From NCBI RefSeq assembly GCF_054482525.1, contig NZ_CM137006.1: a DNA stretch of 64,000 bases; one strand, 5' to 3'. Shown in pieces: positions 9,001 through 12,000 of this stretch. The position numbers were made by a program. Within the stretch, counting starts at the first letter, position 1, and every line of letters starts with the position of its first letter.

Positions 9001-12000
9001 CGAAGCATTGCGTGTTTGCCATGCGGTGCGCAAAGAGCCGGATATTATTACCCGCCAACGGATGATTGCCGAGATATTTACTTCTGGTATGTATAAGCGC
9101 CTGATTACCAATGTGCGCAGCGTGAAGGTGGGTTATCAGGCGTTACTGTGGTCTTTCCGCTTATGGCAATGGCGCGACAAAACGCGGTCGCACCATCGCA
9201 TTACGCGTAGCGCCTTTAATTTGCGCTAGCGTTAAGTTTTGCCGCTTCGGGCTGCTTGCCCCAGCCTTGCCACTGATGCTGGAAGTAAACGATCAGCGTG
9301 CTCTGGCTGATGCTTTCGCTTAATACTTCAAAGAAGCGATTAGCATAAACAGGTTCCAGCGGTTTCTTCGGTTTGCAGAGCTTCACGCCACGGAACGGAT
9401 TACGCGGTGTGTCGGGCACAGTGTTTTTCGGCGGTGTAGACGTATCAACCTGCGGTTCATTCAGCAAGCTGCTGGCTTTCACCAGCGTAATGTCTGGCGG
9501 CAGGTTATAAACCATCTGTTGTAACACGCGTACCGTGGAAGGGTGAGGATGCCCAATGGCAATGGTCGAACCGTTGCGACGTGCCAGGTCAATTGCGCGA
9601 TTGAATTGCACACGGATGTCCGCTTCATTTTGCGAATCGTCGAGGAACACTTTCCGTTTGATCACCTTCACGCCAGTGCCTTGCGCTGCGCGCATCGCCT
9701 GGGTATTACCGATGGTTACGCTGTCGAGGAAGTAAAGATTGTAACGCTCCAGCGCCTGCATCACTTTCTGCATACCAAACAGGTTAGAGGTCATCTTGCT
9801 GCCCATGTGGTTGTTGATCCCCACGGCATAGGGCACGTTATTGACCGCACTACGAATAATGCGCTCAATTTCGTCGCTGCTCATCTCCGGGCGTAGCGTA
9901 TTTTTCTCCAGCGGCTGTTTACTCAGTGGTGCCATCGGTAGATGAATCAACACTTCGTGACCGCTGTTATGCGCTTTGGTCGCCATCTCTCTGGCGTGCG
10001 GTGAATCGGGTAATACAGCGACGGAGATAGCGGAAGGCATCGCCAGCACCTGGTTTTCGTTGTGCGGGCGATACCCAAAATCATCAATGACGATGGCAAG
10101 TTTGCCAGCAAGTACGGGGGAGGAGAGCGCCAACAGAGCGGCAAATGCAAGAACGTTACGACGAAATGGAAACAAAACTTATCTTCCCAACCACGGCTGT
10201 GGATTGACCGCCTGACCCTGGCGGCGAATTTCGAAATAGAGTGAAGGCCGACCCTGACCGCCACTGCTGCCCACCAGTGCAATCGGCTGGCCCGCGCGAA
10301 CCTGCGAACCAACGCTCACCAGCGCGCTCTGATTATAGCCGTAAAGACTCATGTCGCCTTTACCATGCTCAACCACCACCACCAAGCCGTAACCTTGCAG
10401 CCAGTCAGCCAGAATTACCCGACCGTCGGCAATGGCTTTAACTTCAGTACCTTCAGAGGCACCAATCACCATTCCTTTCCAGCGTAATTCACCCTGTAGC
10501 TGCTCACCATAGCGATGCAGCGTCGGCCCGCGAACTGGCCAGAATGCCTGACCACGCGGCGCACCCAGGCCACCAGTTCGGGACATCAGCGATTTTTCGC
10601 TTTCGGTCGGTTTGTAGGTGGTGCCTTTGCGCGTCGCTTCTTTCTGGCGATCGCGAACCGCCTGGGCCTCACGCGCTTCTCGTTCAGCACGCGCTTTCGC
10701 CGCGGCTTCCGCACGGGCAATGCTGTTACGCAGACGGGATTCGTTGGCGCGCAGCTCGCTCAACTGTTGCTGACCTTGCTGGATGGAAGACTCCAGCCCT
10801 GCCAGCGTCTTTTTACGCTCGTTCAGCGCCTGGGTCAGCTTCGCCTGTTGGGCGCGCTGCTCATACAACAGCGTTTGTTGCTCGCTCTGTTTCTCTTCCA
10901 GCTCGGCGCGTTGCATAGCGACTTCTTCACGCGTTTGTTTCAACTGAGCAATGGTTTCTTGTCGCGCCTGGTTGAGATAGCCGAAATAAGCCTGTAAACG
11001 CTGTCCACGCTGGCTTTCTTCACCGCTGAGAATCAGCTGAATACCGGTATGCTCGCCCTGACGGAATGCGGCATCCAGTTGTGCGGCGAGGCTGCGCTCT
11101 TGGGCGGCTTTTTGCTGCTCCAGTTTGGCAATCGACGCGTTCATCTCATCAATCTGTTTATTCAGTTGATTGAGCGTGTTTTGCGTTTCGCGCAGCTTAC
11201 GGGTGGCTTCCGAGATCGCTTCTTCCTGCTTTTTCAACTGAGCAAGCAGGCTGGAGCGTTGTTGTTGCTTTTGGCGTACCGCGCGCTCTTTCGCGGCGAT
11301 ATCGGCCTGAATAGATTTGAGTTGGTCACGTTCATCCGCGTGGGCGGAAAAGGCGCACAACAATACGCCAGCGCTAAGAACGCTGGCGTAGATGATGGGC
11401 CTGATTGCAAACCTGCGCGGTTTCACGGCCCGTGTCATGGTATTAATCGCCTTTCCCCTCATGGGGAGGGATTATTCCACGATGAACAGCGGCTTACCAG
11501 TCATCTCTTGCGGGATTTCCATACCCATCAGCGACAACATGGTCGGCGCGATGTCAGAAAGTTTGCCGCCTTCAACCGCTTTCACGTTCTTATCACCAAC
11601 GTAAATCAGCGGAACTGGCAGGTTGGTGTGTGCCGTGTGTGCCTGACCCGTTGCCGGATCGCGCATCTGTTCAGCGTTACCGTGGTCAGCGGTGATCAGC
11701 AGTTGTCCACCCACGGACTCAACCGCTTTCGCGACTTCTTCCACGCAGTGATCCAGCGCTTCAACCGCTTTAACCGCCGCTTCCATCACCCCGGTGTGAC
11801 CTACCATGTCGCCGTTCGGATAGTTACAGATAATGGTGTCGTATTTGCCGCTCTTGATTGCCGCAACCAGTTTTTCGGTCAGCTCTGCGGAGCTCATTTC
11901 TGGTTGCAGATCGTAGGTAGCCACTTTCGGTGAGTTGATCAGAATGCGATCTTCGCCTTTGAACGACTCTTCTACGCCACCGTTGAAGAAGAAAGTAACG

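What the first reader, a model, noticed from the sequence alone, without database searches (positions are those of the whole stretch)
9216..9229. Convergent 3-prime overlap of waaH and yibQ
The waaH reading frame ends at 9229 while the convergent yibQ reading frame ends at 9216, so the two stop regions overlap by 14 bp with no room for a terminator between them. Transcription of each would run into the other, a set-up for antisense interference.
Basis: seen in the sequence. Interest (0 to 1): 0.15.

Follow-up and report, generated by a model that had tools for sequence, protein, structure and literature searches.

The report
Ordinary convergent overlap of waaH and yibQ
Two real E. coli genes on opposite strands, waaH and yibQ (sddA), share their last 14 bases; this overlap is already in the reference annotation, is one of dozens like it, and shows no sign of a regulatory role.

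Summary
waaH (8195-9229, +) ends at TAG 9227-9229. yibQ/sddA (10175-9216, -) ends at TAA 9218-9216. They share 14 bp (TTAATTTGCGCTAG). The window is E. coli PCN033, and RefSeq annotates the same overlap in PCN033, K-12 and MG1655. About 5,360 of 5,426 complete E. coli genomes keep this junction.

Across about 30 waaH-bearing Enterobacteriaceae the WaaH C-terminus stays at a fixed position. YibQ has a tail of 1-14 residues after its conserved WQGW motif, outside the catalytic domain. The stops overlap, abut or sit a few bases apart (-14, -4, 0, +6, +10, +14) depending on where yibQ's first in-frame stop falls.

No intrinsic terminator lies within 150 nt downstream of the yibQ stop, and the window scan found only one weak candidate downstream of the waaH stop. 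Published bicyclomycin data for K-12 place a Rho-dependent termination region about 324 nt past the yibQ stop, antisense in waaH, so read-through on that strand is real.

Antisense interference is untested. In low-phosphate RNA-seq, a 4-fold difference in waaH left envC and, by inference, yibQ unchanged. About 6% of genomes (O157:H7/O55:H7 type) carry a frameshift that removes the overlap.

Verdict: ordinary and already known. Low interest.

The parts
8195..9229 (+). waaH (yibD) CDS, UDP-glucuronate:LPS(HepIII) glycosyltransferase, 344 aa. The GT2 domain covers residues 9-137. The stop is TAG at 9227-9229.
   Evidence: ORF list. RefSeq annotation. Pfam PF00535, E=2e-38. The C-terminus is at a fixed position in ~30 species.
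9216..10175 (-). yibQ (sddA) CDS, peptidoglycan denuded-strand deacetylase, 319 aa, last gene of the gpmM-envC-yibQ operon. The stop is TAA, read from 9218 to 9216.
   Evidence: ORF list. RefSeq annotation. Pfam PF04748 covers residues 28-238, E=5e-76. SddA paper: catalytic part is residues 24-238, and the C-terminal region is flexible and dispensable for activity.
9216..9229 (.). The 14-bp shared stretch TTAATTTGCGCTAG. It holds the last 4 sense codons plus stop of waaH (F-N-L-R-*) and the last 4 sense codons plus stop of yibQ (A-S-A-N-*).
   Evidence: Sequence. The same stretch is present in K-12, O111 and O55:H7 strains. A 60-nt junction probe matches 5363 of 5426 complete E. coli genomes without gaps.
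9219..9260 (-). The variable YibQ tail: 14 codons (GKQPEAAKLNASAN) after the conserved WQGW motif. Running this tail on to the first in-frame stop is what produces the overlap.
   Evidence: Tail length is 1-14 aa in waaH-bearing species and mostly 4-5 aa in species without waaH. Its sequence is not conserved.
9166..9199 (-). A 13-bp hairpin inside the waaH 3' coding region, 17-50 nt downstream of the yibQ stop on the yibQ-sense RNA. It has no U-tract. It is weaker on the waaH-sense strand because two G-U pairs become A-C mismatches there.
   Evidence: Fold energy is -23.0 kcal/mol on the - strand (z=-4.6) and -16.9 on the + strand (z=-3.3). There is no covariation across 18 species: 68.9% of cells paired against 67.3% in shuffles. 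No Term-seq 3' end is listed here in K-12.
9056..9175 (-). A moderately C>G stretch of the yibQ-strand RNA, 40-160 nt after the stop. It is compatible with Rho loading on untranslated RNA.
   Evidence: C/G is 1.44-1.64 in 80-nt windows. The 90th percentile for the window is 1.58.
8892..8892 (-). Approximate peak of the Rho-dependent termination region for yibQ-strand read-through. It is mapped from MG1655 position 3789384(+) and lies antisense to waaH. Resolution is hundreds of nt.
   Evidence: Adams 2021 supp. file 2: counts -BCM 106/28, +BCM 187/274, Rho score 5.55, p=1.8e-15. Coordinate map.
8234..8234 (+). Approximate peak of a Rho-dependent termination region on the waaH strand, about 39 nt into waaH. 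It is mapped from MG1655 position 3790042(-), from cells grown in LB.
   Evidence: Adams 2021 supp. file 2: Rho score 5.77, p=7e-13.

Best explanation
This is an ordinary and evolutionarily old tail-to-tail packing of two real genes, not a dedicated regulatory device.

waaH is a lower-GC LPS glycosyltransferase gene found in only some Enterobacteriaceae. Wherever it occurs, it sits directly against the end of the gpmM-envC-yibQ(sddA) operon.

The WaaH C-terminus is at a fixed position. YibQ ends in a short tail after its conserved WQGW motif, and that tail is under little constraint and lies outside the catalytic domain. In the Escherichia/Salmonella/Citrobacter type, the first in-frame yibQ stop lies 11 nt inside waaH, which gives 14 shared bases once the stop codon is counted. 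In other genera the same junction gives a 4-base overlap, abutting stops, or a spacer of 6-14 nt.

No space or sequence for an intrinsic terminator exists, so termination is factor-dependent. After the yibQ stop the RNA is untranslated. Rho then ends it a few hundred nucleotides into antisense waaH; this is shown for K-12 in LB. When waaH is induced by phosphate starvation, its transcripts presumably run antisense into yibQ and are ended in the same way; this is inferred. The CDS overlap itself has no demonstrated consequence for expression.
For: Both genes are real. They have Pfam domains. RefSeq annotates them in 5,390+ genomes. The literature gives both a function: WaaH, SddA.

The overlap is in the reference annotations.

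The YibQ scan of one genome per species returned 80 loci.
- WaaH ends at the same alignment position in ~30 species.
- The YibQ tail varies from 1 to 14 aa.
- The distance from the WQGW codons to the waaH stop is 5-31 nt in 30 of 32 waaH-bearing loci.
- The gap classes are -14, -4, 0, +6, +10 and +14.

The tail lies outside Pfam PF04748. It lies in a region reported as flexible and dispensable for catalysis.

No canonical terminator lies within 150 nt after the yibQ stop in any of 31 tightly packed species. 12 of 48 species without an adjacent waaH have one.

Rho dependence of yibQ-strand read-through in K-12 has Rho score 5.55, p=1.8e-15. The RNA is C>G at +40..+160.

Natural loss of the overlap is tolerated. 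309 of 5,370 genomes, of the O157:H7/O55:H7 type, carry a frameshift that ends waaH at the position equivalent to 9210.

Convergent overlaps are common: 75 pairs in E. coli.
Against: The tight junction is kept across more than 10 genera, which could reflect selection for something beyond compactness.

A strong local hairpin (9166-9199, z=-4.6) sits just after the yibQ stop. Within Escherichia, the substitutions seen fall in its loop and not its stem.

The Rho data come from K-12 in LB only, at a resolution of hundreds of nt. They do not come from PCN033 or from low-phosphate conditions. waaH-strand read-through has not been observed directly.
Confidence: 0.8

Rival explanations
1. An excludon-like antisense interference. 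Under phosphate starvation, strong waaH transcription would read antisense into yibQ and envC. In rich medium, operon read-through would cover the waaH 3' half. RNAP collision or RNase III cleavage of the duplex would then make expression of the LPS-modification gene and the cell-separation operon reciprocal.
For: There is no terminator between the genes. yibQ-strand read-through into antisense waaH is real: about a quarter of upstream read counts persist downstream even with Rho active, 106 against 28. In low Pi, waaH reaches 11,500-13,900 normalised counts, several-fold above envC at about 2,100-2,400. The tight junction is conserved across genera. The excludon concept is established in other bacteria.
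Against: In low-Pi RNA-seq, wild type and delta-phoB differ 4.2-fold in waaH. envC changes only by log2 -0.4 (adjusted p 0.19). yibQ is absent from the stored part of the table, which is sorted by p and reaches p of about 0.50. Rho limits the read-through. The O157:H7 lineage and several deletion or IS variants alter the junction or waaH. Many genera have no waaH next to the same operon.
Confidence: 0.1
2. The 13-bp hairpin at 9166-9199 is a functional RNA element embedded in the waaH coding sequence. It would act either as a 3'-end-protecting stem-loop, to which Rho-terminated gpmM-envC-yibQ transcripts are trimmed back, or as the pausing hairpin of a collision-driven bidirectional terminator of the kind described for convergent E. 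coli pairs such as ynaJ-uspE.
For: The hairpin folds at -23.0 kcal/mol on the yibQ-sense strand, and 0 of 200 shuffles fold as well. It starts 17 nt after the yibQ stop. It is stronger on the yibQ-sense strand than on the other strand. E. coli and E. albertii differ only in the loop. Collision-driven termination needs a hairpin and no U-tract.
Against: There is no covariation, and no excess pairing over shuffled controls, across 18 species. The 3' arm is the antisense of the conserved WRD codons, so its conservation is explained by coding. In the Citrobacter freundii/Kluyvera clade the fold differs. The K-12 Term-seq lists contain no 3' end for yibQ or antisense to waaH in the conditions reported. 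Read-through past the hairpin is Rho-sensitive.
Confidence: 0.08
3. An annotation artefact: one of the two genes really ends earlier, so there is no true overlap.
For: Many long convergent overlaps in databases are 3'-extension artefacts (PMC2478687). In O157:H7/O55:H7 the waaH ORF does end earlier because of a frameshift.
Against: Stop codons are unambiguous, and neither frame has an earlier in-frame stop. The WaaH end is at a fixed position in ~30 species. Full-length SddA with its native C-terminus ...KFNASAN was expressed and C-terminally tagged. The overlap is only 14 bp.
Confidence: 0.01

Closest known systems
Convergent (tail-to-tail) overlapping gene pairs of prokaryotes (Rogozin 2002; Huvet & Stumpf 2014, 75 pairs in E. 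coli)
   Same: Two bona fide CDSs on opposite strands share a short 3' stretch. The overlap arises from movement of a stop codon, is conserved among related species, and lies in weakly constrained termini.
   Different: Nothing essential differs; this pair is a member of that class. The detail added here is that the variable partner is YibQ. The junction also exists as overlap, abutment or a short spacer in different genera.
Rho-dependent termination of operon 3' ends and Rho suppression of antisense transcription in E. coli (Peters 2012; Dar & Sorek 2018; Adams 2021)
   Same: Untranslated RNA after the last stop codon is terminated diffusely by Rho, inside and antisense to the neighbouring convergent gene. 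Read-through is bicyclomycin-sensitive.
   Different: The precise rut site and the release sites at this locus are not mapped. The only evidence is a score based on 800-nt windows.
Excludon (overlapping transcription of neighbouring opposite-strand genes giving mutually exclusive expression; Listeria; ExcludonFinder 2025)
   Same: The genes are convergent with no terminator between them. The transcripts are expected to overlap. One partner is strongly condition-induced.
   Different: Reciprocal expression is not seen in the available data. Rho curtails the overlap. No RNase III data exist.
Bidirectional terminators between convergent E. coli genes (Ju 2019; Wang & Liu 2022 preprint, ynaJ-uspE)
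   Same: The genes are convergent, and a palindromic hairpin lies near the junction.
   Different: There are no flanking A and U tracts. The hairpin lies inside a coding sequence and is not conserved as a structure. Read-through is Rho-dependent. No sharp 3' ends are reported.

Membership tests
Convergent overlapping gene pair | Two CDSs on opposite strands whose 3' ends share nucleotides | tested here: met
   9216-9229 are shared. RefSeq annotations are identical.
Convergent overlapping gene pair | Both partners are real protein-coding genes, not spurious ORFs or 3' extensions | tested here: met
   Pfam GT2 and PF04748 match. Published functions exist for both proteins. The WaaH end is at a fixed position in ~30 species.
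Convergent overlapping gene pair | The overlap is conserved in more than one genome or species | tested here: met
   The -14 class occurs in Escherichia, Salmonella, Citrobacter, Leclercia, Enterobacter, Silvania and Cedecea. The junction probe matches 5363 of 5426 E. coli genomes.
Rho-dependent terminator | Read-through increases when Rho is inhibited (bicyclomycin) | tested here: met
   This rests on published K-12 data, not a new experiment: Rho score 5.55, p=1.8e-15 at MG1655 3789384(+).
Rho-dependent terminator | An untranslated, C-rich and G-poor RNA segment upstream of the release sites | tested here: inconclusive
   C/G is 1.44-1.64 at +40..+160 after the yibQ stop, about the 90th percentile of the window. 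On the waaH strand there is no clear C>G zone for about 360 nt.
Intrinsic or bidirectional intrinsic terminator | A GC-rich hairpin immediately followed by a U-tract, with an A-tract upstream for bidirectional action | tested here: not met
   Neither scan finds one at or near the junction on the yibQ strand. The hairpin at 9166-9199 has no U-tract. The weak 6-bp candidate at 9292-9311 is within chance expectation: 6 found against 4.6 expected.
Excludon | Transcripts of the two neighbouring genes overlap | tested here: inconclusive
   yibQ-strand read-through into waaH is supported. waaH-strand read-through into yibQ has not been measured.
Excludon | Reciprocal (mutually exclusive) expression of the partners | tested here: not met
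   In low Pi, wild type against delta-phoB shows waaH 4.2-fold up and envC at log2 -0.4 (not significant). yibQ is not among rows with adjusted p up to about 0.50. This comes from a truncated supplementary table and is a weak test.
Excludon | RNase III-dependent processing of the sense/antisense duplex | not testable with these tools
   It needs RNA-seq or dsRNA immunoprecipitation from an rnc mutant.
Structured cis-regulatory RNA | A match to a curated family, or covariation support for a structure | tested here: not met
   Rfam gives no hit at E<=1 over 7900-11600. The covariation score is 0.102 against a shuffled mean of 0.106.

The most novel reading that the evidence does not exclude
The near-universal tight tail-to-tail packing of waaH against the envC-sddA operon would be maintained because it couples the two. 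The packing is 5-31 nt between the functional ends in 30 of 32 waaH-bearing species. During phosphate starvation, heavy waaH transcription into antisense sddA/envC, or the reverse in rich medium, would tune septal peptidoglycan processing against LPS core modification. That would be an excludon linking envelope remodelling to cell separation, possibly assisted by the Escherichia-specific hairpin at 9166-9199.
Probability: 0.08. Interest if true: 0.4.

Novelty: already known. Interest (0 to 1): 0.07.

Why it matters
It matters little. The overlap is already in the reference annotation and belongs to a well-described class.

The small practical points:
- Deleting or tagging the 3' end of either gene alters the other. 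A clean delta-waaH, or a C-terminal tag on SddA or WaaH, changes the partner's last four codons.
- waaH and yibQ mRNAs necessarily carry long 3' regions antisense to each other. This is relevant when strand-specific RNA-seq of this locus is interpreted.
- PGAP flags waaH of the O157:H7 lineage as frameshifted. This may bear on reports that WaaH does not add GlcUA in O157.

Tried and rejected
1. Conserved RNA structure at the junction. Two hairpins (9208-9228 and 9166-9199) were tested on an 18-species alignment. Neither paired more often than shuffled controls, and there was no covariation. Rejected as a conserved element. The larger hairpin is real in Escherichia only.

2. Known RNA families. 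Rfam gave nothing at E<=1.

3. Intrinsic terminator embedded in the partner gene. The tool scan and my own scan of 81 loci found none. My first scanner version had a bug: it let stems absorb the U-tract. It was fixed.

4. 3'-end datasets.
- ExcludonFinder, Dar & Sorek 2018, Choe 2022 and the Rend-seq annotation paper have no supplementary text held.
- The TERMITe supplements do not mention either gene.
- Ju 2019 is not held.

5. An apparent 152-nt overlap in Superficieibacter electus (L023). This was an artefact of extending a tblastn HSP through the true stop. The real gap is +10.

6. An apparent replacement of waaH by another glycosyltransferase in strain G5 (H30). This is an IS1-associated deletion that left the last 114 nt of waaH.
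Full report
**Identity of the locus.** The window is the chromosome of E. 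coli PCN033. Positions 8000-10400 match NZ_CP006632.1 at 100% identity, and 5,392 of 5,426 complete E. coli genomes carry at least 80% of this stretch. Locally the gene order is kbl-tdh (+), waaH (+), then yibQ-envC-gpmM (-).

**The observation.**
- waaH runs 8195..9229, ending ...RSAFNLR-TAG.
- yibQ runs 10175..9216 on the other strand, ending ...KLNASAN-TAA.
- The two CDSs share 9216-9229, TTAATTTGCGCTAG, 14 bp.
- RefSeq annotates exactly this in PCN033, a K-12 strain and MG1655 (yibQ 3788101..3789060, waaH 3789047..3790081).
- A 60-nt probe across the junction matches 5,363 of 5,426 genomes full-length and ungapped.

**Is it unusual?** It is not. Huvet & Stumpf (PMC4161906) count 663 overlapping adjacent pairs in E. 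coli, of which 75 are convergent. Pallejà et al. (PMC2478687) note that the convergent orientation is the one that tolerates real overlaps. In this window there are 8 convergent pairs. This is the only one that overlaps, and the others are 11-457 nt apart.

**Which gene 'extends'?** I scanned one genome per species with YibQ and obtained 80 loci. About 33 have waaH convergent to yibQ.
- WaaH ends at the same alignment position in every species, with one single-residue indel between two clades. The consensus is ...WRDK-x9/10-A(L/F)NL(R/G/S/Y)* or ...LTLDLKD*.
- YibQ has a conserved C-terminal motif (...QSTLVxYxQxQWQGW) followed by a tail of 0-14 residues with no sequence conservation.
- The tail and the preceding 60 residues lie outside the Pfam deacetylase domain, which covers residues 28-238.
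- YibQ has since been renamed SddA, a septal denuded-glycan-strand deacetylase. For that protein, residues 24-238 suffice for activity. The C-terminal region is predicted flexible and is a substrate of the tail-specific protease Prc (bioRxiv 10.1101/2025.02.18.638797).
- The distance from the WQGW codons to the waaH stop is 5-31 nt in 30 of 32 waaH-bearing loci.
- The position of the first in-frame yibQ stop decides the form of the junction:
  - a 14-bp overlap in Escherichia, Salmonella diarizonae, several Citrobacter, Leclercia, Enterobacter ENT03, Silvania and Cedecea colo
  - a 4-bp overlap in Kluyvera, Pseudescherichia and UBA5654
  - abutting stops in the C. freundii complex and K. ascorbata
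  - a spacer of 6, 10 or 14 nt in Kosakonia and Superficieibacter
- Only Pseudocitrobacter has room, at 72-113 nt.
- The meaningful feature is thus the old, tight packing of the two genes. The formal overlap is a by-product of an unconstrained tail.
- Two Citrobacter genomes without waaH (L008, L010) still carry the last ~15 nt of waaH, because those bases encode the YibQ tail. The tdh terminator follows 87 nt later. This is a deletion scar.

**Variation within E. coli.**
- 309 of 5,370 genomes match a variant allele typed from O157:H7 and O55:H7 strains. It has a 1-nt insertion (GCGCGACAAAA to GCGCGAAAAAAA) about 50 nt before the waaH stop.
- In that allele the ORF ends at the TAG equivalent to 9208-9210. 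WaaH loses its last 19 residues, and the two CDSs no longer overlap, leaving a 5-nt spacer.
- PGAP calls this waaH a frameshifted pseudogene.
- Other strains have internal or IS1-associated deletions of waaH.
- The overlap is therefore dispensable.

**Termination.**
- There is no intergenic space.
- Neither the consensus scan nor my scan of the species loci finds a hairpin plus U-tract within 150 nt after the yibQ stop. This holds for all 31 tightly packed species. In contrast, 12 of 48 species without an adjacent waaH have a canonical terminator there.
- Rfam finds nothing.
- E. coli has a 13-bp hairpin at 9166-9199 inside the waaH codons for WQWRDKTRSHHR. It folds at -23.0 kcal/mol on the yibQ-sense strand (z=-4.6) and -16.9 on the waaH-sense strand.
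- That hairpin has no U-tract. An 18-species alignment shows no covariation and no excess pairing: 68.9% against 67.3% in shuffles.

**Experimental evidence from the literature.** Adams et al. 2021 (eLife, PMC7815308, supp. file 2; MG1655, LB, with and without bicyclomycin) list two Rho termination regions here.
- Position 3789384(+) is classed 'antisense waaH'. Upstream/downstream counts are 106/28 without BCM and 187/274 with it. The Rho score is 5.55, p=1.8e-15. This is 324 nt past the yibQ stop, equivalent to window ~8892.
- Position 3790042(-) is classed 'internal waaH'. The Rho score is 5.77, p=7e-13. This is 39 nt into waaH, equivalent to window ~8234.
- Their Term-seq lists contain no 3' end for yibQ or waaH. 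They do show a strong intrinsic 3' end for tdh and one inside envC.
- The yibQ-strand RNA is moderately C>G at 40-160 nt after its stop (C/G up to 1.64, about the 90th percentile). The waaH-strand RNA past its stop is not.
- Operon transcription therefore does run antisense into waaH and is ended by Rho.
- In LB, transcription on the waaH strand is mostly stopped by Rho at the start of waaH and does not reach the junction.

**Interference.**
- waaH is strongly induced by phosphate limitation: +80-fold in O157:H7 (bioRxiv 10.1101/536201). The induction is PhoB-dependent, but perhaps indirectly so in K-12 (Fitzgerald 2023).
- In Fitzgerald's low-Pi RNA-seq, waaH is 13,872/11,547 in wild type against 3,032/2,925 in delta-phoB.
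- envC is 2,088/2,432 against 2,848/3,194, a log2 change of -0.4 with adjusted p 0.19.
- The stored part of that table is sorted by p and reaches about 0.50 without a yibQ row. yibQ is therefore, by inference, not significantly changed.
- This argues against strong interference but is not a decisive test.

**Conclusion.** The finding is a correct reading of a known, annotated, ordinary convergent overlap.
- Shown here: the coordinates; that both genes are real; that the WaaH end is fixed and the YibQ tail variable; that no intrinsic terminator is present; that the junction is widely conserved; and that the overlap has been lost naturally in one major lineage.
- Taken from the literature: Rho-dependent termination of yibQ-strand read-through; the functions of both proteins; and the frequency of convergent overlaps.
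- Inferred: that the overlap arose by drift of the yibQ stop across a minimal spacer; that waaH transcripts read into yibQ under phosphate starvation; and that the overlap has no regulatory role.

The excludon reading and a functional-hairpin reading remain possible at low probability, about 0.1 each.

Noticed in passing
window 9172-9183 (equivalent position); L088, L089: The O157:H7/O55:H7-type allele of waaH has a 1-nt insertion (GCGCGACAAAA to GCGCGAAAAAAA). It replaces the last 19 residues with 11 others and ends the ORF at the TAG equivalent to 9208-9210. 309 of 5,370 complete genomes carry it, and PGAP calls it a frameshifted pseudogene. This may bear on the reported absence of GlcUA addition by WaaH in O157, which that paper attributes to the R3 core.
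   Followed up: partly
window ~8234 (+), mapped from MG1655 3790042(-): Published BCM data show a Rho-dependent termination region about 39 nt into waaH in LB (Rho score 5.77). Together with the report that PhoB does not bind upstream of waaH, this raises the possibility that waaH induction involves relief of Rho-dependent attenuation, or read-through from tdh, rather than direct promoter activation.
   Followed up: no
L008 and L010 (Citrobacter sp. Awk 4 and R56), about 3946-4070: These genomes have no waaH. Even so, the yibQ tail (...INANAN*) and the last ~15 nt of waaH including its stop-codon complement are retained. The tdh terminator hairpin follows 87 nt later. This is a deletion scar whose edge coincides with the yibQ stop.
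   Followed up: partly
window 11338-11390 (-), inside the 5' end of envC: A 12-bp hairpin (TACGCCAGCGTTCTTAGCGCTGGCGTA) lies in the signal-peptide-coding part of envC. Adams 2021 lists an ORF-internal Term-seq 3' end at MG1655 3786938(+), about 100 nt into envC and ~26 nt downstream of the hairpin.
   Followed up: no
window 7964-7985: The tdh terminator hairpin AAGGGCTGGAATACCAGCCCTT was reported by the scan on the - strand only. K-12 Term-seq shows a very strong primary 3' end for tdh here (MG1655 3790287, score about 45,500). It separates tdh from the waaH promoter region.
   Followed up: no
window 8000-9050: waaH and its upstream region have lower GC (0.36-0.52) than the flanking genes (0.52-0.62). 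waaH is absent from many Enterobacteriaceae at this locus, including Klebsiella, Raoultella, most Enterobacter and Lelliottia. Both points are consistent with a mobile or accessory LPS gene.
   Followed up: partly
L086 (E. coli G5) 2748-3614; H21 (strain FCI54): IS1 elements have hit waaH in some strains. In G5 an IS1A sits next to a remnant of only the last 114 nt of waaH. In FCI54 an IS1 splits waaH in two.
   Followed up: partly
window ~34800-44260 (PCN033 record 3971166-3980626): An RHS element lies here. Its core gene is annotated as a pseudogene with an internal stop. It is followed by several orphan toxin-tip and immunity fragments (NTF2-fold immunity, Imm57, Tlde1-domain, pentapeptide fragments), many frameshifted. 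Elsewhere in the window there is a 5.25-kb YadA-like adhesin gene (~21025-26277) and a hicAB pair.
   Followed up: no
PMC6206680 (UTI89 region 4,049,515-4,052,967): An expression-library screen for division inhibitors enriched a fragment spanning envC-yibQ-yibD(waaH)-tdh. This is consistent with the later finding that SddA overproduction causes cell chaining.
   Followed up: no
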